A DNA stretch of 64,000 bases from a virus: the IMG/VR virus record IMGVR_UViG_3300008954_000005, positions 91,723-155,722 of that record. One strand, written 5' to 3'. The position numbers were made by a program, and so were the translations under genes. This document shows, one piece after another, positions 8,178 through 45,100 of this stretch (the first letter of the stretch is position 1; the number at the start of each line of letters is the position of its first letter). The notes under the pieces were generated by a model, which saw only the letters and a program-made list of their open reading frames with translations, ran no database searches and had not been told where the DNA came from.

Positions 8178-8726
8178 ATGAACCTGAGCGAGTACCAAAG
8201 GTTAGCAGCGAGAACCATCCCAGTAGAAGAAATAGATAGCCTTCTAACGAACTTTTGTTTAGGTCTTGCTGGGGAGGGTGGGGAGTTGATTGACCACGTT
8301 AAGAAAGCGGTCTTTCATAAGCACGCCCTTGATAAAGATTACTTGGCTAAAGAGCTTGGTGATCTCCTTTGGTACATCGCCGGGATTTCGAGCATATTAA
8401 AACTCGACCTGTCGGACATAGGTGATATAAATATAGACAAGCTGAAGCGCCGTTATCCGAACGGCTTCACAACCCATCACAGTGTTCACCGGGAGGAAGA
8501 ATTGGACATAAATGACATGATCAAGAAGCGGCAAGTAGCCTTACTAGAAATCATCGGATCAGTGAATACCACTGTCACCGAGGGTGATGCCGTCGTTGGG
8601 GCCTTCCTCGACATAGACCAAGGCTACGTTGAGCTAGAAGATGGCTCTGGCTACCGAATGTCTATGGGACCAGTAACCAAGTCTGAGATGCGTTCCGTGA
8701 AGAAACGCCTAAACCTAGAAGAGTAA
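8178..8726 (+). CDS. MazG-like nucleotide pyrophosphohydrolase with C-terminal extension
   Basis: YQRLAART...GLAGEGGELIDHVKK...KELGDLLWYI...NIDKLKRRYPNGF. Confidence 0.9.
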   Translation: MNLSEYQRLAARTIPVEEIDSLLTNFCLGLAGEGGELIDHVKKAVFHKHALDKDYLAKELGDLLWYIAGISSILKLDLSDIGDINIDKLKRRYPNGFTTHHSVHREEELDINDMIKKRQVALLEIIGSVNTTVTEGDAVVGAFLDIDQGYVELEDGSGYRMSMGPVTKSEMRSVKKRLNLEE

Positions 8727-8730
8727 TATT

Positions 8731-8976
8731 ATGGAAAAATACAGCGACGCCTCCCAACTTGTCGCAACACTTCTGAAGATGAAGCTCTGCGATTCTGAAG
8801 AGGCTGCGATGGAAAAAATAGCTTCCGGGAGAGCCCCCCAAATGATTAAGGACTTCAAGATGAAGCTGCTTAACGACATGGTCAGTCTGTACAGAGACCA
8901 GCTTGGGGATGACGGTATGGACCCAGAACTTATCGAAGAATTTGAAAAAATGAGAAAAGAACTAGAGGAGACCTGA
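8731..8976 (+). CDS. Hypothetical helical protein (81 aa)
   Basis: TGATG overlap with the recA-like gene. Confidence 0.65.
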   Translation: MEKYSDASQLVATLLKMKLCDSEEAAMEKIASGRAPQMIKDFKMKLLNDMVSLYRDQLGDDGMDPELIEEFEKMRKELEET

Positions 8977-10058
8977 TGGCCAAAAAAGATCTAAGCCACC
9001 TCATTAAATCGGTACAAAAGCGTCTCGGTGGAGCCGCGACAGTTACCCCCATTACAGAGGTAGAGACCCCGTTTGATACGAGGCTCCCTACCGGAATATT
9101 ATCGCTTGATATCGCGTTAAAAGGCGGGTTGCCCGGTGGCTCAATGATCCAACTTTTCGGGCCAGACGGCGTAGGTAAAGACTACCTTTCGAACCGAGTG
9201 ATTGCTGAGGTACAGCGGACACACGGAGACGCAGCTAACATTGCCTGGATGAGCTTCGGATACAAACCGGACCCAGGGTTCATGGAACTGGCTGGTATTG
9301 ATCTAGATTGCGGAAACCTACTCTTTGTCGATCTCGCTACCACCGACTCCGATGCACCAGCAGAGACAATGCTGGACGCCATGCTAGAGATGGTTAAATC
9401 CCAGGAGTTCCACTTGTTGATCATCAACGAACTCGGCTCCGGAGAAACGCGACACAATCTAGTTAAAGGCCTGGGCGAAGACGCAAAAATCGCTACGTGG
9501 GCTTCTTTACTTAGTTCCTTCTGTCAGAAGTTCTACTCTGCCATGCGCGTTCCTGGCGAGGACGGCAAGCCCAACCAGACTTGTGTAGTCATGATTAACC
9601 CGGTTCGGGCAAACATGAACGCGCACAGCGCGAAGTACGTTCCTTACACCCAGCCTGGGGGATACGCCCTCAAGCACGCAAAAGCTGTAGATATTCACTT
9701 GAAGCCGGGTCAGACCCTAAAGAAGGGAACGACAAAAATCGGAAAAGAGATCAAGTGGAAAATCTCAAAAGGCAAGCACGGGATTAGCGAGGGTGCTGAG
9801 GGGAGCTATAGCTTCATCTTCAACCAAGGCGTAGATTTAGTTCAAGACCTAGCGCGTGCAGCAAAGGCACACGGTGTGGTTAGGAATAGCGGTCCTGTTT
9901 ACTATATCCTCGATTACGAGGATAAAATCAAAGGTGGCCTGGATGGGGTAGTCTCAATGTTGAGATCGTCCCCAGAACTAGCCGCTGAAGTCCGAGCCGC
10001 AGTGCTGGGTAAAACACCCAATGAAGAGGAGCCTTCTGATGATGAAGTACTTACCTGA
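8976..10058 (+). CDS. recA: RecA/UvsX-like recombinase with non-canonical ATPase motifs
   Basis: PTGILSLDIALKGGLPGG, P-loop GPDGVGKD, PGGYALKH and KISKGKHG are colinear with RecA; 360 aa. Confidence 0.88.
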   Translation: MAKKDLSHLIKSVQKRLGGAATVTPITEVETPFDTRLPTGILSLDIALKGGLPGGSMIQLFGPDGVGKDYLSNRVIAEVQRTHGDAANIAWMSFGYKPDPGFMELAGIDLDCGNLLFVDLATTDSDAPAETMLDAMLEMVKSQEFHLLIINELGSGETRHNLVKGLGEDAKIATWASLLSSFCQKFYSAMRVPGEDGKPNQTCVVMINPVRANMNAHSAKYVPYTQPGGYALKHAKAVDIHLKPGQTLKKGTTKIGKEIKWKISKGKHGISEGAEGSYSFIFNQGVDLVQDLARAAKAHGVVRNSGPVYYILDYEDKIKGGLDGVVSMLRSSPELAAEVRAAVLGKTPNEEEPSDDEVLT

Positions 10059-10317
10059 ACCAGCTATTTTCATAGTGTTAATCTCATTCCTCGTCGTCTC
10101 TACCGGTTGGTACCTGTTCTGGATCCAACCAAACGATGCGAAGTTAGCGAAAATACACGCCTGTATGGGCGAAAAATACGCCGACCTACAACAAGCCGAT
10201 GGCGATCTCTGGCGAGTTTACGCTCGCTCTGGAACACTCTCGGCTAGTGCGGCAGGTAATGAGCTAGACCACGCTATTTACACCTCGTGTGTGAGACAGC
10301 TAAATACCGGTAACTAG
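10039..10317 (+). CDS. Small single-pass membrane protein
   Basis: N-terminal hydrophobic AIFIVLISFLVVSTGWYLFWI; two Cys in the soluble part. Confidence 0.6.
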   Translation: MMKYLPEPAIFIVLISFLVVSTGWYLFWIQPNDAKLAKIHACMGEKYADLQQADGDLWRVYARSGTLSASAAGNELDHAIYTSCVRQLNTGN

Positions 10318-10318
10318 C

Positions 10319-11086
10319 ATGGCAAGACTCTGTATTCGGATAGGGCCAAAAGCACAACCGCACTATGTAGATGGGTTCCCCTTCCTTCCTGGGCTGTACT
10401 TTCACAAGCCGCCCAAGAAGGCAAAGGGGGGCACAGAGTATTCCATCACGCATATAAAGAGCGGTCTTGCGGTCCTCCCGAATATAGATGAGCGTCACCT
10501 AGAGCTATGCCGAATGATTCTAGGGCGCGTAGACTGGGACAAGGGCGCGGAACAGATTTACAACGACACAACATATGACATCGTAATAAAGGAGGCATTA
10601 GCTGTGACCACAAACCGCGATGCTAGTAAAAAACAAGAGAAGCGCATCGCGAAAGAACTTGAAGGAAAAACTCAAGCAGGCTCCGGGTCAGTTTGGGGGT
10701 TCAGACGGGATGTGGTGACACCAGAGCTTCTGGTGGAAGCGAAGACAACAACAACGGGGAAATACGCCCTAAGCTTAAAAGACCTAAAGCACTTGAAATT
10801 TCAAGCATATTCAGAAGGTAAAATACCTGCGTACATAATAGAGTTTGCGAGGAAAGGTGAGGTAGCCATAGTCCCATTTCAGGATCTAGGAGAAGATTTC
10901 CTAGAAGAGCTTTCTTCTACTAGGGATATCCCAAGCAAAAAGAAATCTTCAAAGATATTAACTATTTCTCTAGAGATGGCCGCAGACGTTTTCAATGACG
11001 TAGGCGTGCGATTTACCGTTGAGTCGGATGAGTATCTACTGATGAGCTACGAGAATTTCCTCACCTTTGCGAAAAGAGGTATATGA
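10319..11086 (+). CDS. PD-(D/E)XK nuclease, putative Holliday-junction-resolvase-like, with extra N- and C-terminal regions
   Basis: SKKQEKRIAKEL-G-TQAGSGS...RDV...LVEAKTT. Confidence 0.7.
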   Translation: MARLCIRIGPKAQPHYVDGFPFLPGLYFHKPPKKAKGGTEYSITHIKSGLAVLPNIDERHLELCRMILGRVDWDKGAEQIYNDTTYDIVIKEALAVTTNRDASKKQEKRIAKELEGKTQAGSGSVWGFRRDVVTPELLVEAKTTTTGKYALSLKDLKHLKFQAYSEGKIPAYIIEFARKGEVAIVPFQDLGEDFLEELSSTRDIPSKKKSSKILTISLEMAADVFNDVGVRFTVESDEYLLMSYENFLTFAKRGI

Positions 11087-11087
11087 A

Positions 11088-11801
11088 ATGGCAAAGAAAA
11101 AAGGATTTAGGATTCCAGCACGCTGCCTAAACGAAAAGAAGATAAAAGAGGACGGAGAGTTCTCAGTATTAAAAGAAATAGAGCGTATTGACTTCGAATC
11201 AAACCTAGAGCCTTGGTCTAGAAGAACCGGTGGGTATCACCCATCCTCTCTTACGCCAACGGCCTGTAAACGTGCTCTTTGGTACGACCGGACAGGGCAA
11301 GAGCCCGAAAGCCGAATCCCATCAGATCTCCGTATGCTGTTTGACATGGGGCACGCGCTTCACGACATGATCCAAGAGAAGCTTGAGAAGGAGTTCGACG
11401 GATTCAACGCCGAGATCCCAATCAGTAACGAAGACCTCCACATCGTGGGCCACTGCGACGGAATATTCCGTGATAGGGACTGGCTACTTGAGATCAAAAC
11501 AGTGGGCGAGAGTGTGTTTAAATCACTTGTTCGGCCCAAGAAAGAGCATATCTACCAAGTACACTGTTACATGTTCTGCGAGGACGTCCCAAGGACTCAG
11601 CTACTTTACGTGGCTAGGGCGACGGGACAGATGCGACTCTTCAAGATTGAGTTCGACAACGACATCTTCCAGGAAATTGTGAGCATAATAAAGACAGTTG
11701 AAGAATTTGTAGAGGCTGGAGAAGCCCCTCCAAAGGAACCAAACAAATGGGTATGTAGAACATGTAAGTTTCAGCATGTCTGCCAGCCCTTCAGCGAGTA
11801 G
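11088..11801 (+). CDS. Cas4-like/RecB-family exonuclease (stand-alone)
   Basis: HPSSL..ACKR, GHALH, GHCDG, LEIKT, QVHCYM; C-terminal CRTC.....C completes a 1+3 Cys Fe-S ligand pattern. Confidence 0.88.
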   Translation: MAKKKGFRIPARCLNEKKIKEDGEFSVLKEIERIDFESNLEPWSRRTGGYHPSSLTPTACKRALWYDRTGQEPESRIPSDLRMLFDMGHALHDMIQEKLEKEFDGFNAEIPISNEDLHIVGHCDGIFRDRDWLLEIKTVGESVFKSLVRPKKEHIYQVHCYMFCEDVPRTQLLYVARATGQMRLFKIEFDNDIFQEIVSIIKTVEEFVEAGEAPPKEPNKWVCRTCKFQHVCQPFSE

Positions 11802-11810
11802 GAGGTGCCT

Positions 11811-12356
11811 ATGGCTGAGAAGGATTTATTCCTTGAATTACGTGAAACACTAGAAAAAGATCTGCGTGCCACGGGTTTTGCTCCTGATCGGGAGCCACCC
11901 AGTGAAGAACCTAGACTACCTGCTGGGTTGAAGGACTTACCGAACGAAGACCTCAAAGAACTCTACGATGATTTCTTGGCGTTCTTTGAGTATCTTTCTG
12001 ATCAAGTTGCTAAAGCCAGTAGCTACATGTCCGTCAGTAAAGCGAGACTTGAGGCGGTAACCGCGACGGCAACTCTTGCATCTGCCAAAGATAAAAAGTT
12101 AACCAACGCAGACCTCCGAAAGGCGTACGTCGTAACTGCCTGTTTAGGGGCAAAGCGGGACTACGTTTACTTCAAGGCAAAGGTAGATGTCCACGATGCT
12201 AGGCTAAGAAAGATAAGCAAAAGCATGGACAGAATCGGAAGAGAGCTATGGTTTAGAACACAAGATGAGCCCGAGCGTAACTCTGAGTTTTCCTTGAGTA
12301 AATCAAAGCCAGCAAAGAAATTTGCCGGGGGTTATAAGCCGGTGTCTCGTGAATAA
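11811..12356 (+). CDS. Hypothetical helical/coiled-coil protein; possible recombination mediator by context only
   Basis: AGGAGG 5 nt before ATG 11811; helical composition; lies between two nucleases. Confidence 0.6.
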   Translation: MAEKDLFLELRETLEKDLRATGFAPDREPPSEEPRLPAGLKDLPNEDLKELYDDFLAFFEYLSDQVAKASSYMSVSKARLEAVTATATLASAKDKKLTNADLRKAYVVTACLGAKRDYVYFKAKVDVHDARLRKISKSMDRIGRELWFRTQDEPERNSEFSLSKSKPAKKFAGGYKPVSRE

Positions 12357-12783
12357 AAATAAGACGGTGTTCACTGCAGAGTTGACGTTGCTACCACCGT
12401 CAGTTAACAATATGTATATCTATACTGCTCGTGGGCCTAGGCCGTCTAGCAAGATGAAACAGTTTAAAGCGAAAGCGTCTATGGAGATAGCCCAACAACT
12501 GTCCTTTGACGGGAGCCCTCTAAACGGAGACAAGCCCCATCGACTAAGTATTTACTACTACCTACCAGCCTTGTTCAACAAGGGGTGGCCAACAAAGGCC
12601 AAGACCCGATTCAAGCGGCGGGACGTATCAAACTTAGTAAAGGTGTTAGAGGACGTACTGGCCGACTGTTTAGGTATCGACGATTCTTGTTTCACGGAGG
12701 AGTTTATTCAGAAATTAGACGGACCCGCCCATGACTTCGTGGGCATCAAAATAAAAATAGAAGAGCTTAGCGATGAATCCTAA
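12349..12783 (+). CDS. rusA: RusA-family Holliday junction resolvase
   Basis: LPPSVNNMY; RRDVSNLVKVLEDVL...GIDDS catalytic pattern; GTG start overlapping the upstream gene. Confidence 0.85.
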   Translation: MNKNKTVFTAELTLLPPSVNNMYIYTARGPRPSSKMKQFKAKASMEIAQQLSFDGSPLNGDKPHRLSIYYYLPALFNKGWPTKAKTRFKRRDVSNLVKVLEDVLADCLGIDDSCFTEEFIQKLDGPAHDFVGIKIKIEELSDES

Positions 12784-42171: not shown

Positions 42172-45100
42172 CTAAACTCCGTTAACCTTAACCAGCGTGA
42201 GGTCTTCCATTATGTGGTACTGGTTTCCCAGAAAGACGATGTCCTTACTACGAGCAACCCTAATCTTCCTATCCGCCCCGTACGTCAAGAAAGACGCCTC
42301 CTGCGGAAACCTCGTGTAAGTCACACCACGCCTTGTCAAAACCGACGATAGATCAAATAGCTCTAAAGGCTTGTTCGGATACAAAGATGACAAAAACTCA
42401 GAGATGTAATCCTTTAGCTCGGTGTTTGTTAACTTCCCACCAGAACAGACGATGGACATCATCGGATACGCCGGAAAAAAGTGACGAGCGAGTGGGTTGT
42501 TACAAACGACCCTCATCGTTTTGTTGAGAAGGTAGTTTTGTACATCATGTACGACCTGTGCTCGGTCGTAATTGATGACTACAGACGACCCAGCCACTTC
42601 GTATACAAACTCAAAAGAGTCATCGGATACATCAAGCACGACCGACGTCACGCGTAGACTGGAGTCCTCGCCCATCGAATACGAGTAGTTATCGTTGCTG
42701 ACTACGATGTCATACCCAAGAGAAGTGTACCCATCCACTGTTAACTGCGTATCGTCTGGAACGATACCGCCAGTGATGTTCGGGTCGTAAGAAGTGAGCC
42801 TAAAAACAGCCGAAAACAAACCAGAATCGTCTGATTCTAATTCGGATGGGAACACACCCTGGTACTTCTCTCGATAAACCTCGATAAACACCTCTTCAAA
42901 GTCCTTGACTCCTGGGCCACCACCTGAGCTTCCCCAGGCTCCACCAGTAACCTCGTTCTGCATGTATTCTTTGATTTTACCGTCCCCGGCATCACCGTAC
43001 GCAGACTCCTTCGTCATCCAGAGTTGGTACTTGGCTGGAACAAGATCGCCCGTGACAAAGTCTGTATAGGGCTCTTCGTACTCAAGCTTAGAAACGGTGA
43101 ACTCCCGAATGAGTCTTGGGTCCGGAGTATTGTCCCGCTGGGTGACGAACCGGATACCGTCCTGTTCTAGAATCCCAATCGTTCCCTGCGTAAGAAGTTT
43201 TAGGTCGTTAGCGGAAGATAGGCGGATTACGTATTGCTCGGGCGTCCCCTCTGGGTCGAACTCGTACACATCCGCCCTCAGCACATCACCTAGTTGTCGG
43301 TTCATATCCGCAACAACGTCATCCAACGTCATTGGGTTTGGTCCACTAAACGTACAAGTACGCATTGACCCGTTGACGTCTACGGCCATGGTCTTTCCAC
43401 CGACCATGAGGCTCTCGTCTTCCTCGTATTCAACGCCCGTTAGGTCCGTATCACCACGAAATACGTCAGACCAGATCACCTTAGAGGAAATCTGGATCTT
43501 ATCTCCGGGCTGAATTCCGTGTTTAAAGAAGTCCACAAGCTCGGATTGGATTACCCGTGTCGTATCATCTGGGTCGGCCAACAAACTGTTGCTGATCGTT
43601 AGGTCTGTGGTGTTGTACAACGACTTAAACACCCCAGCGCTTTCCGCAGGGGAGGGCCGCAAATACGACTTTTTCTGGGTAGCCGGGTTTGTGTACGTGA
43701 ATACAGTGTCTGGTCCCGCCAAAAAGTACGTCTTGTCCCTGAAGTAGACTTTCCCTGTGCCGATAGAGGGGTGGCCTAACGTAAACTCAAGCGCGTCTGT
43801 CGCCCTTGGAAGCTCTTTGTACCGGTCTAGAACCAGCTTATTGTTCTTACCAAGGGCGCGATAGTGGAGAACACGGTGGGTCGCATCCACACCCCAACCA
43901 TTCAAATCATCGGAGTACTCTGGATTGCTCGTGATATCGATGGTTATTAAGGTGAACCCACCAGACACGTCAACGCTCTCAATTAAGAAGGTCCCGTTTT
44001 CGGCGTAATCATCAAGAACAAATAAATCCCCTGCGCCAATTGTCCCACTCCAATCAGCCGCGTCTACTGACCTAACCGTCAAAGCACCAGATACATAAAC
44101 CTCACCTGCGTCTGTCGAGGTTGCGTCCGCTAGGGTAGTGCTCGCATCCAAGTAATCATCTACAGGCCAATGGCCGTCGATAACGCCCTCTACATACCAA
44201 TACCTGTCCTCTTCATCCATGCTGTCGAGACGAAGAACATCATAAAGAGATACGCCGTACTCGGCTAAGTTAATGGTGTTCTCAAGGGTAAAGCACGCCC
44301 GCTTAACCAACTCTGTTTCAGTTTCTGGGTCGGTATCAAGTTCCCCATCCAGATTAAGATCAACAGCCTCTAGAGATAGCTGCCCACCGTCTACACCAAA
44401 GGTAGCTTGGGTCATCGGGTCGTCATTGAGCCCAGTGAAATCACTGGAAACAACATCAACCGGGTGCCGATACGGCACGGATACACCGGAGTTATCTGAG
44501 TCGGAGAGCGACACGGACTTAACTCGAACAAGCGGGTACTGCACTGCGGTCGCTTGCTTTGTGTAAATCCGGTAAGACGCTCCTGTATCTGACTCTTGGA
44601 TTGCCTTCTCAAGAATCAAGGTGTTCAGGTTAATCGCCGTAATCTTGTACTCACCCCTATTCTTCTCGGAGTCGATGTACAAAAACATCTCTACCGAGCC
44701 AGGAACCGCAGCAAAATCGTACCCAGATGGGCTATACGCCGACTGAGAGTTCTCAGTAACGATGAGATCCGTACCCTTTTTCAGTACGATCAGTGGTGTT
44801 GCAAGGTTCGTAGAACACTCAGCGACAACGCGAAAGCGTAGGTGTTCAAAGCCAAGACCGAGGCTTTCGGGGAACGCACCATCGATCTTAACCCCACCAG
44901 CGACAGAGTGAACAATTCTGAAGTGTGTAGGCTGTAGTTCTGCCGAAGGTGGATCAAGGAGTTCAAGAACTAGGTTGTCCAATGGCCTTGGAGATGACCC
45001 AAATTGGTTCGCCAATGCGGCTTCTAGCTCTGCGCTATAGAAATGCGATAGCTGTACAGACGGGTTTACAACACCGTCGCTAGCAGCGACCAAAATCTGT

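What the first reader, a model, noticed from the sequence alone, without database searches (positions are those of the whole stretch)
8976..10058. RecA homologue with four coordinated changes in the ATPase site
Seen: Walker A GPDGVGKD (residues 62-69; Asp in place of Thr/Ser), Walker B LLIINE (Asn in place of Asp, cf. IVVDS), WMSFGY where RecA has FIDAEH (catalytic Glu absent), and MINPVR where RecA has FINQIR (sensor Gln to Pro). The ORF is full length and keeps the GG.ALK and KxK motifs. Inference: a pseudo-ATPase or re-wired recombinase, e.g. an ATP-independent annealer, a dominant-negative inhibitor of host RecA/SOS, or a site where T>D and D>N compensate for Mg2+ binding.
Basis: partly seen in the sequence, partly recalled or inferred. 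Interest (0 to 1): 0.72.

Follow-up and report, generated by a model that had tools for sequence, protein, structure and literature searches.

The report
Phage RecA with a rewired ATP site
A large uncultured marine phage encodes a full-length, strongly conserved RecA recombinase whose "essential" ATP-site residues are exchanged in matched pairs, which points to a re-plumbed site rather than a dead one and gives a natural test case for how P-loop ATPases work.

Summary
ORF 8976-10058 (360 aa) is a RecA-family protein. By E. coli numbering it carries T73D, E96G, D144N and Q194P.

About 100 close homologues exist, plus a much wider set of metagenomic, apparently viral, RecA-like proteins. Among 265 aligned sequences the changes come in two matched pairs:
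- Walker A Asp goes with Walker B Asn in 111 sequences. D+D occurs twice and T/S/N+N never. On a tree the two traits change 11 and 10 times, with 6 of 7 independent contrasts concordant and none discordant (p=0.03).
- Loss of Glu96 always goes with Glu or Asp at Walker B+1. No sequence has both acidic residues or neither.

The P-loop, Lys72, Asp100, Arg196 and the trans-acting Lys248/Lys250 are as invariant as in canonical relatives. Selection is strongly purifying.

The gene lies in a replication/recombination operon. A second RecA paralogue with canonical catalytic residues but no N-terminal helix is present in all 7 records that are at least 79% complete.

Best reading: a nucleotide-dependent recombinase with a re-plumbed site. 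ATP binding is likely kept; hydrolysis is plausible but unproven. A pure pseudo-ATPase is the main rival.

The scan's first readers noted the same family in six other genomes, none followed up. I found no paper describing the rewiring.

The parts
8976..10058 (+). RecA-family gene, 360 aa, with a rewired ATP site
   Evidence: Pfam PF00154 E=3.9e-22, 79.4 bits against a cut-off of 27. PHROG 97 UvsX-like, E=2.5e-28. AlphaFold2 model pLDDT 88.8, pTM 0.86. Best PDB matches are RecA filament protomers, 7jy6_A TM 0.77 and rmsd 3.6.
8965..8978 (+). Shine-Dalgarno GAGGAG (8965-8970) and an ATG that overlaps the TGA stop of the upstream 81-aa ORF (TGATG, 8974-8978)
   Evidence: Read directly from the sequence. 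This suggests translational coupling within an operon.
8976..9080 (+). N-terminal segment (residues 1-35) with the helix that forms the subunit-subunit contact in RecA filaments
   Evidence: Helix 7-16 in the model. It aligns to RecA from residue ~6. It is absent from the second paralogue.
9159..9182 (+). Walker A GPDGVGKD: Gly62, Gly67 and Lys68 kept; Asp69 replaces Thr73
   Evidence: In the Gly95/Glu152 class G62 is 124/124, K68 is 124/124, and position 69 is D 97, N 14, T 12.
9246..9263 (+). WMSFGY in place of FIDAEH: Gly95 at the catalytic Glu96 position
   Evidence: The S/T-F-G-Y motif is near-invariant in 126 sequences.
9414..9431 (+). Walker B LLIINE: Asn151 replaces Asp144, and Glu152 replaces Ser145 (candidate relocated catalytic carboxylate)
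   Evidence: Glu152 is present in all 126 sequences that have Gly at position 95, and Ser in all 123 that keep Glu there.
9591..9608 (+). MINPVR: Pro209 replaces the gamma-phosphate sensor Gln194; Arg211 (= Arg196) is kept
   Evidence: Position 209 is P 100, Q 20, E 6 in the Gly95/Glu152 class, against Q 122/123 in the canonical class. R211 is 125/125.
9657..9677 (+). GGYALKH at the end of DNA-binding loop L2 (RecA G211-G212-N-A-L-K-F)
   Evidence: G229, A231 and L232 invariant. L1 and L2 have low pLDDT in the model, as expected for loops that order on DNA.
9759..9776 (+). KISKGK: Lys265 and Lys267 = RecA Lys248/Lys250, which reach the ATP of the neighbouring subunit
   Evidence: Both are invariant in 125/125 rewired sequences.
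9831..10013 (+). RecA-type C-terminal domain (residues ~286-346)
   Evidence: Secondary structure of the model. The alignment to RecA runs to residue ~343.
8178..8976 (+). Upstream operon partners: MazG-like pyrophosphohydrolase (8178-8726) and an 81-aa ORF (8731-8976)
   Evidence: Pfam PF03819, E=1.3e-10. The same order is kept in L033 and L034.
10319..12783 (+). Downstream recombination genes: Holliday-junction-resolvase-like nuclease (10319-11086), Cas4-type exonuclease (11067-11801), unknown 183 aa (11805-12356), RusA resolvase (12322-12783)
   Evidence: phrog_2002 E=5e-18; phrog_1706 E=2.8e-39 and Pfam Cas_Cas4; RusA PF05866 E=8e-9. Synteny is conserved in L033 and L034.

Best explanation
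This is the RecA-type recombinase of a roughly 155-180 kb uncultured phage. It is expressed from the replication/recombination operon. Its nucleotide site has been re-plumbed rather than inactivated.

Three steps are shown:
1. It has the full RecA architecture.
2. The P-loop, Lys72, Asp100, Arg196 and the trans-acting Lys248/Lys250 are all under strict selection.
3. The odd residues come in two co-varying pairs.

The rest is inferred. Asp69 takes over the Mg2+-ligand role of Thr73, and Asn151 takes the hydrogen-bonding role of Asp144. This swaps the position of the single carboxylate in the Walker A/Walker B dyad. The water-activating carboxylate has moved from the end of the neighbouring strand (Glu96, now Gly95) to Walker B+1 (Glu152), the place it occupies in AAA+, ABC and SF1/2 ATPases. 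Pro209 in place of Gln194 probably changes how the gamma-phosphate is coupled to DNA-binding loop L2.

The protein therefore most likely still binds Mg-ATP at filament interfaces and uses it to form an active filament on ssDNA for phage recombination-dependent replication or repair. Hydrolysis is probably retained but altered. A second, canonical-site RecA paralogue without the N-terminal helix, conserved in the same genomes, may modulate or cap these filaments. That last point is speculative.
For: Family and fold.

Selection:
- dN is 0.07-0.08 against the two closest orthologues, while 69-71% of fourfold sites differ, which is saturated.
- Synonymous codons turn over at every odd residue.

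Pair 1, among 265 aligned sequences:
- Walker A+1 = D with Walker B = N occurs 111 times; D+D occurs 2 times; T/S/N + N occurs 0 times.
- On a tree built with the trait columns masked, the two traits change 11 and 10 times. On well-supported branches 6 of 7 independent contrasts go the same way and none the opposite way, p=0.031.
- 15 sequences have the D/N pair together with canonical Glu96, Ser145 and Gln194. The pair is therefore not tied to loss of the other catalytic residues.
- The codons lie one step apart (ACC Thr, AAC Asn, GAC Asp), and the Asn/Asp intermediate is common, in 49 sequences.

Pair 2: Gly at position 95 with Glu152 in 126 sequences, Glu at 95 with Ser in 123, Gly with Asp in 5. 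No sequence has two acidic residues or none.

The nucleotide-contacting and trans-acting residues are as invariant in the rewired class as in the canonical class.

Kozlova et al. 2022 state that in RecA/F1 ATPases the Walker B D+1 residue may help coordinate the catalytic water, and that D+1 Glu is the catalytic residue in AAA+ ATPases.

Context: PolA, primase and helicase lie upstream; a resolvase-like nuclease, a Cas4-type exonuclease and RusA lie downstream. This synteny is conserved.
Against: - There is no biochemistry and no atomic model with nucleotide.
- In other P-loop enzymes Asp(Walker B)->Asn mutants bind NTP but are catalytically poor (Kozlova et al.). Asn at Walker A+1 is known only from very weak ATPases, torsinA and DnaC.
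- Gln194 is required for ATP-driven activation in E. coli RecA (my knowledge of the Kelley and Knight mutant work). Here it is Pro, with no identified substitute.
- The Glu96 -> Walker B+1 swap happened only about 3-4 times on the tree. Its coupling is perfect in state counts but not statistically testable.
- Co-variation proves selection on the pair (charge or geometry of the site), not hydrolysis.
- The tree is a FastTree tree of deep, divergent sequences.
- A canonical-site paralogue in the same genome could supply the catalytic activity.
Confidence: 0.58

Rival explanations
1. Natural pseudo-ATPase. The protein binds ATP and forms filaments but cannot hydrolyse it, like E. coli RecA K72R or E96D. 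It acts as a hydrolysis-independent pairing protein. Turnover is then provided by another factor, for example the canonical paralogue or a helicase.
For: Four residues needed for hydrolysis or allostery in E. coli RecA are changed. Walker B Asn mutants generally keep binding but lose catalysis (Kozlova et al.). Q194P is uncompensated. A canonical-site paralogue co-occurs in all 7 near-complete genomes.
Against: A site that never hydrolyses has no obvious need for an invariant carboxylate at exactly one of two water-activating positions, nor for invariant trans-acting Lys248/Lys250. The D/N pair also occurs in relatives with an otherwise canonical catalytic set.
Confidence: 0.25
2. Accessory paralogue. 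The 290-aa canonical-site RecA is the strand-exchange enzyme, and this ORF is a Rad55/Rad57-like mediator that nucleates, caps or stabilises its filament in a heteromer.
For: Two RecA paralogues only 24% identical to each other are conserved together. Their features are complementary. This ORF has the N-terminal helix and the trans-acting KxK motif. The other keeps Thr/Ser, Glu96, Asp144 and Gln194 but lacks the helix and the Lys248 equivalent.
Against: This ORF, not the other, has the complete RecA architecture and sits among the nucleases and resolvases. The other paralogue lies about 57 kb away and overlaps an AAA+ ATPase gene. The rewired family is much more widespread than the second paralogue, which has 32 homologues. 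No interaction test could be run.
Confidence: 0.12
3. Anti-host factor. A RecA mimic that poisons host RecA filaments or blocks the SOS response or RecA-triggered defences.
For: None directly. Only the general idea that an ATPase-altered RecA could be dominant negative.
Against: It is only 24-29% identical to any cellular RecA, so mixed filaments are unlikely. It lies in a replication/recombination operon rather than among early host-takeover genes. The DNA-binding and ATP-contact residues are conserved.
Confidence: 0.04
4. A decaying gene or an alignment artefact.
For: None.
Against: The reading frame is intact in more than 100 homologues, purifying selection is strong, the fold prediction is confident, and HMMER and MAFFT give the same alignment.
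Confidence: 0.01

Closest known systems
Bacterial RecA (E. coli RecA; Pfam PF00154, TIGR02012)
   Same: Same three-part architecture and fold (TM 0.73-0.77 to filament protomers). P-loop Gly and Lys, Asp100, aromatic 103, Arg196, the GG at the end of L2 and Lys248/Lys250 are all conserved. It passes the Pfam threshold.
   Different: Only 24-29% identity, and it scores 101 bits against a cut-off of 325 for the RecA equivalog model. Thr73, Glu96, Asp144 and Gln194 are all replaced, and a Glu appears at position 145.
Phage UvsX-like / RecA-like recombinases (PHROG 97; e.g. mycobacteriophage Kumao gp88, Microcystis phage Ma-LMM01 RecA, Thermus phage phiLo)
   Same: A phage-encoded RecA-family recombinase inside a replication/recombination module. 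It matches the same PHROG.
   Different: All 8 cultured-phage proteins I sampled have the canonical Thr/Ser, Glu, Asp-Ser and Gln. No cultured phage protein is more than about 27% identical.
AAA+, ABC and SF1/SF2 ATPases (Walker B hhhhDE)
   Same: The acidic residue immediately after the Walker B position, which is the catalytic Glu in those classes.
   Different: Different ASCE classes and folds around the core. The residue before the Glu here is Asn, not Asp. No homology beyond the P-loop core is claimed.
torsinA and DnaC (Asn at Walker A+1); metazoan polynucleotide kinase (Asn at Walker B)
   Same: [quoted passage not shown] 2022. The Asn(K+1)/Asp state is also common among this protein's relatives (49 of 265).
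   Different: Those paragraphs do not describe the inverted dyad Asp(K+1)/Asn(Walker B) seen here. The families are unrelated.
Rad51 paralogues with degenerate sites (Rad55-Rad57, Shu complex, RFS-1/RIP-1) and archaeal RadB
   Same: A second RecA-family protein with a non-canonical site co-encoded with another family member. A possible mediator role.
   Different: This comparison rests on my knowledge. In those proteins the P-loop itself is often degenerate or dispensable. Here the P-loop and the trans-acting lysines are invariant, and the protein keeps bacterial-type N- and C-terminal domains.
Divergent marine metagenomic RecA-like clades (Wu et al. 2011, PMC3060911, 'RecA-like SAR1' and others; PMC12153180, 2025, viral clusters 5 and 19)
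   Same: Ocean-derived, virus-associated, deeply divergent RecA-like sequences. This family is plausibly among them.
   Different: Those papers report phylogenetic novelty only. 'Walker' and 'motif' do not occur in the RecA sections.

Membership tests
RecA family (Pfam PF00154) | Profile match above the gathering threshold over the whole domain | tested here: met
   79.4 bits against 27, profile positions 2-261 of 262.
Bacterial RecA equivalog (TIGR02012) | Score above the curated equivalog cut-off | tested here: not met
   101.3 bits against a cut-off of 325.3.
RecA family | N-terminal helix + ATPase core + C-terminal domain fold | tested here: met
   AlphaFold2 pLDDT 88.8. Foldseek top 50 hits are all RecA, covering about 340-350 columns.
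Canonical RecA active site | Walker A GxxxxGK[ST] | tested here: not met
   GPDGVGKD. Gly and Lys are kept; Asp replaces Thr73.
Canonical RecA active site | Walker B hhhhD (Asp144) | tested here: not met
   LLIIN-E, with Asn151.
Canonical RecA active site | Catalytic Glu96 at the end of the strand next to Walker B | tested here: not met
   Gly95. An invariant Glu152 is found at Walker B+1 instead.
Canonical RecA active site | Gamma-phosphate sensor Gln194 | tested here: not met
   Pro209.
Canonical RecA active site | Trans-acting Lys248/Lys250 | tested here: met
   K265 and K267, 125/125 in the rewired class.
RecA family | ssDNA-dependent ATPase, filament formation and strand exchange | not testable with these tools
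   Needs purified protein.
UvsX-like recombinases (PHROG 97) | Profile match | tested here: met
   E=2.5e-28, 100.6 bits. The PHROG pools RecA-like and UvsX-like phage proteins.
Sak4 / core-only RecA-like phage recombinases | ATPase core only, without RecA N- and C-terminal domains | tested here: not met
   Both terminal domains are present in the model and the alignment.
Pseudo-ATPase RecA/Rad51 paralogues | Relaxed or degenerate conservation of the nucleotide-binding residues | tested here: not met
   P-loop Gly and Lys, Asp100 equivalent, Arg196 equivalent and KxK are as invariant as in canonical relatives. Actual hydrolysis was not tested.

The most novel reading that the evidence does not exclude
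The protein is a working ATPase in which two supposedly universal arrangements of P-loop enzymes have been inverted by evolution. First, the Ser/Thr(Walker A+1)-Asp(Walker B) dyad has become Asp-Asn, repeatedly and in a coupled manner (at least 6 times). Second, the RecA/F1-class catalytic Glu has moved to the Walker B+1 position typical of AAA+ and helicase classes. That would make this phage family a natural experiment on which residue holds Mg2+ and accepts the proton during NTP hydrolysis.
Probability: 0.45. Interest if true: 0.8.

Novelty: new variant of a known kind. Interest (0 to 1): 0.68.

Why it matters
Thr73, Glu96, Asp144 and Gln194 are the residues used to define what RecA needs for ATP hydrolysis and ATP-driven activation. 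The Ser/Thr-Asp dyad is called strictly conserved across all P-loop NTPases (Kozlova et al. 2022).

A large, strongly selected viral clade replaces all four. It does so in matched pairs that recur independently. This suggests the chemistry can be laid out differently.

If the protein is active, it offers ready-made swap and reversion mutants for the debate on the catalytic base and proton acceptor in P-loop enzymes. It would also show that the RecA/F1 and "Walker B-DE" arrangements can interconvert.

If it is inactive, it is the first large family of bacterial-type RecA pseudo-ATPases. Paired with a canonical paralogue, it would be a viral analogue of the Rad51-paralogue systems.

Either way, annotation pipelines that call these proteins "RecA" hide the difference.

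Tried and rejected
No interaction or ATP-Mg co-fold could be obtained.
- Model coordinates were not exposed in the script box. I could not measure distances from Asp69 or Glu152 to the nucleotide site.
- NG86 dS is undefined (saturated) for every pair, even at 90% amino-acid identity. I therefore report dN together with fourfold-site divergence instead of a dN/dS ratio.
- I searched for a cultured or cellular carrier.
  - tblastn of this ORF and of a D/N-type relative against 50,697 phage records gave nothing above about 27% identity.
  - 8 sampled cultured-phage RecAs are all canonical.
  - A scan of 185,579 species genomes gave only ordinary RecAs at 32% identity or less.
  - Cluster look-ups returned only unnamed metagenomic entries.
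  - No host clue emerged.
- Literature searches for the Asp/Asn dyad ('GKD' with Walker A/B) found nothing. Searches on relocation of the catalytic Glu returned only general ASCE papers.
- Rejected readings: pseudogene or artefact, ATP-independent annealer (the nucleotide-site residues are invariant), and Sak4-type core-only recombinase (the terminal domains are present).
Full report
**What is there**

The ORF at 8976-10058 (+) is open and encodes 360 aa. It has a GAGGAG Shine-Dalgarno at 8965-8970. Its ATG overlaps the stop codon of the preceding 81-aa ORF (TGATG).

It is a RecA-family protein:
- Pfam PF00154, E=3.9e-22, covering profile positions 2-261 of 262.
- PHROG 97 'UvsX-like recombinase', E=2.5e-28.
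- It scores far below the bacterial RecA equivalog cut-off, 101 against 325 bits for TIGR02012.

An AlphaFold2 model built on 41 homologues is confident (pLDDT 88.8, pTM 0.86). It is low only in the two DNA-binding loops and the last 10 residues. Its 50 best PDB matches are all RecA. The closest are protomers of active filaments: 7jy6_A (TM 0.77, rmsd 3.6) and 8s70_D (TM 0.76). The N-terminal helix, the core and the C-terminal domain are all present.

**The observation**

HMMER alignment to E. coli RecA and two MAFFT alignments agree on these correspondences. Numbering is the established E. coli numbering.

| E. coli RecA | This ORF | Change |
|---|---|---|
| GPESSGKT | GPDGVGKD | Thr73 -> Asp69 |
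| FIDAEH | WMSFGY | Glu96 -> Gly95 |
| VVDS | IINE | Asp144 -> Asn151, Ser145 -> Glu152 |
| FINQIR | MINPVR | Gln194 -> Pro209 |
| Lys248 / Lys250 | Lys265 / Lys267 | kept |

**Where it lives**

The window is bases 91723-155722 of a 155.7-kb IMG/VR virus record estimated 87% complete. The gene lies in a plus-strand replication/recombination block. In order, the block holds:
- a DnaB-like helicase, a primase and DNA polymerase A;
- a GIY-YIG protein;
- a MazG pyrophosphohydrolase and the 81-aa ORF;
- this RecA;
- a small ORF;
- a Holliday-junction-resolvase-like PD-(D/E)XK nuclease;
- a Cas4-type exonuclease;
- an unknown 183-aa protein;
- RusA.

The same order is kept around the two closest orthologues, at 90% identity, on 120-kb and 177-kb contigs.

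**The family**

A word-indexed search found about 95 homologues at 32-91% identity, many on 130-190 kb contigs. There is then a sharp drop to ordinary bacterial RecAs at 28-29%.

An exhaustive HMMER search of 1.84 billion cluster representatives gave 6,048 hits at E<=1e-3 and 75 at E<=1e-30. These reveal a broad metagenomic radiation of RecA-like proteins. The close family sits on IMG/VR virus records.

No cultured phage has a protein more than about 27% identical. Eight sampled cultured-phage RecA/UvsX-like proteins all have canonical residues. A scan of one genome for each of 185,579 prokaryote species found only ordinary RecAs at 32% identity or less. The family is so far known only from uncultured viruses, and the host is unknown.

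**Selection**

Against the two closest orthologues dN is 0.07-0.08. In the same comparisons 178-179 codons differ only synonymously, 36-37 change the amino acid, and 69-71% of fourfold sites differ, which is saturated. The true dN/dS must therefore be very low.

Each unusual residue is kept while its codon changes:
- D69: GAC/GAT
- G95: all four GGN codons
- N151: AAC/AAT
- E152: GAA/GAG
- P209: all four CCN codons

**The key result: the odd residues come in matched pairs**

I aligned 265 sequences: the close family, 50%-identity representatives and some canonical RecAs.

*Pair 1, Walker A+1 and Walker B*
- D with N: 111 sequences.
- T/S/N with D: about 140.
- D with D: 2.
- T/S/N with N: 0.
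- 15 of the D/N sequences keep canonical Glu96, Ser145 and Gln194. The inverted dyad is therefore not just part of a general collapse of the site.

I built a FastTree tree of 257 sequences with the five trait columns masked. On it, 'Walker A+1 = Asp' changes 11 times and 'Walker B = Asn' changes 10 times. On well-supported branches there are 7 phylogenetically independent contrasts. In 6 of them the second trait goes the same way, in none the opposite way, and in one it does not differ (sign test p=0.031).

Inside the 98%-supported clade of 104 sequences that contains the query, the dyad toggles among D/N (90), N/D (8) and T/D (5). The codons lie one step apart: ACC Thr, AAC Asn, GAC Asp. The Asn/Asp state is common (49 sequences) and D/D is rare. 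This suggests the route T/D -> N/D -> (D/D) -> D/N.

*Pair 2, the Glu96 position and Walker B+1*
- Gly with Glu: 126 sequences.
- Glu with Ser: 123.
- Gly with Asp: 5.
- Glu with Gly: 3.
- One sequence each has Ala with Glu and Asp with Ser.
- No aligned RecA-like sequence has two acidic residues or none. The only exception is P0197, a repetitive row that I excluded as unreliable.
- This swap occurred only about 3-4 times on the tree. Its coupling cannot be tested statistically, but the states are mutually exclusive without exception.

**The rest of the nucleotide site**

Conservation in the rewired class is as strict as in the canonical class:
- Gly62: 124/124
- Lys68: 124/124
- Gln80: 125/125
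- Asp99 (= Asp100): 124/126
- An aromatic residue at position 102 (= Tyr103)
- Arg211 (= Arg196): 125/125
- Lys265 and Lys267: 125/125

The roles of Asp100 and Tyr103 in adenine binding, and of Lys248/Lys250 in contacting the neighbour's ATP, are established knowledge of RecA structures.

**Interpretation**

A dead site would not keep its P-loop, its adenine pocket and its trans-acting lysines invariant. It would not keep exactly one carboxylate in the Walker A/B dyad, nor exactly one at the two positions that can reach the attacking water.

The most economical reading is a re-plumbed Mg-ATP site:
- Asp69 ligates Mg2+ in place of the Thr hydroxyl.
- Asn151 supplies the hydrogen bond that Asp144 normally gives.
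- Glu152 replaces Glu96 as the water-activating residue.
- Gly95 makes room for it.

Kozlova et al. 2022 (10.1101/2022.06.23.497301) support the geometry. In RecA/F1 enzymes the catalytic Glu caps the strand next to Walker B, the Walker B D+1 residue may also coordinate the catalytic water, and D+1 Glu is the catalytic residue in AAA+ ATPases.

[quoted passage not shown] The exceptions it lists are Asn(K+1) in torsinA and DnaC, Asn(Walker B) in metazoan polynucleotide kinase, and Glu(Walker B). Term searches of that paper for 'AspK+1' and 'AsnK+1' returned nothing, so the inverted Asp/Asn dyad does not seem to be described there.

**What remains open**

Co-variation shows selection on the pair. 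It does not show turnover.
- Walker B Asn mutants of other enzymes bind NTP but hydrolyse poorly.
- Asn(K+1) proteins are weak ATPases.
- Gln194, needed for ATP-driven activation of E. coli RecA (my knowledge), is Pro here with no visible substitute. Within the Gly/Glu class it is P in 100 sequences, Q in 20 and E in 6.

A binding-competent, hydrolysis-poor 'switch' RecA is therefore a serious rival.

**A second RecA**

The same phage genome encodes another RecA-like protein at G000:C1 about 43003-43875, outside the window.
- It is 290 aa, with canonical GK[ST], TEG, IDS and NQLR.
- It has no N-terminal helix, and the Lys248 equivalent is lost.
- It folds as a RecA core plus C-terminal domain (pLDDT 81.5; TM about 0.8 to RecA).
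- It is only 24% identical to the ORF studied here.
- Its start overlaps the end of an AAA+ ATPase gene.
- It is present in all 7 related records that are at least 79% complete.
- It has only 32 detectable homologues.

The complementary features invite a heteromer or filament-capping model like that of the Rad51 paralogues.

**Prior knowledge**
- Divergent marine viral RecA-like clades have been reported from metagenomes (Wu et al. 2011, PMC3060911; PMC12153180, 2025). Neither paper analyses the motifs.
- First-stage readers of this scan flagged the same rewiring on this stretch in another window and in six other genomes, none followed up.
- I reached the same reading independently before seeing those notes and then tested it here.

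**Verdict**

The finding is real, conserved and under selection. It is a new variant of a known kind. The 'pseudo-ATPase' label is not the best fit. 'Rewired site' is better supported, with hydrolysis unproven.

Noticed in passing
L002:1483-2355 (= G000:C1 about 43003-43875, outside the window): A second RecA paralogue of 290 aa with canonical catalytic residues but no N-terminal helix. Its TTG start overlaps the stop of a 476-aa AAA+ (FtsH/Cdc48-type) ATPase gene. An anaerobic-RNR-activase-like gene follows. It is conserved in all 7 near-complete relatives.
   Followed up: partly
window 10319-11086 and 12322-12783: Two different Holliday-junction-resolvase-type nucleases lie in one operon: a PD-(D/E)XK type (phrog_2002) and RusA. 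Between them are a Cas4-type exonuclease (11067-11801) and an unknown 183-aa ORF (11805-12356).
   Followed up: partly
related proteins P0121-P0265: Asn at Walker A+1 (GKN), otherwise known from torsinA and DnaC, is common in this metagenomic RecA-like radiation: 49 of 265 sequences, mostly with canonical Glu96, Asp144 and Gln194. A small group has Walker B 'DD' with Gly at the Glu96 position (P0209, P0220, P0235, P0239, P0260).
   Followed up: partly
alignment A1, columns about 145-185 (between query residues 110 and 113): Many family members carry a roughly 25-40 aa insertion (consensus ...D-E-L...G-x-x-P...R-G...) after the strand that follows the SFGY motif. The window's own protein and its closest relatives lack it.
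   Followed up: no
window 10021-10317: A 98-aa ORF with a hydrophobic N-terminal segment overlaps the 3' end of the RecA gene. A gene of similar size (81 aa) is called at the same place in L034, but none in L033.
   Followed up: no
window 15839-50013, minus strand: A run of very large ORFs (2883, 998, 841, 1532, 2225 and 2613 aa). The four medium or large minus-strand ORFs I scanned (331, 998, 335 and 999 aa) have no PHROG match at E<=1e-5.
   Followed up: no
whole genome (literature lead): Wu et al. 2011 reported both novel RecA and novel RpoB subfamilies in ocean metagenomes. According to another first-reader note, this phage carries a fused beta-beta' RNA polymerase in addition to the divergent RecA. 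The same phage group might explain both. Not tested.
   Followed up: no
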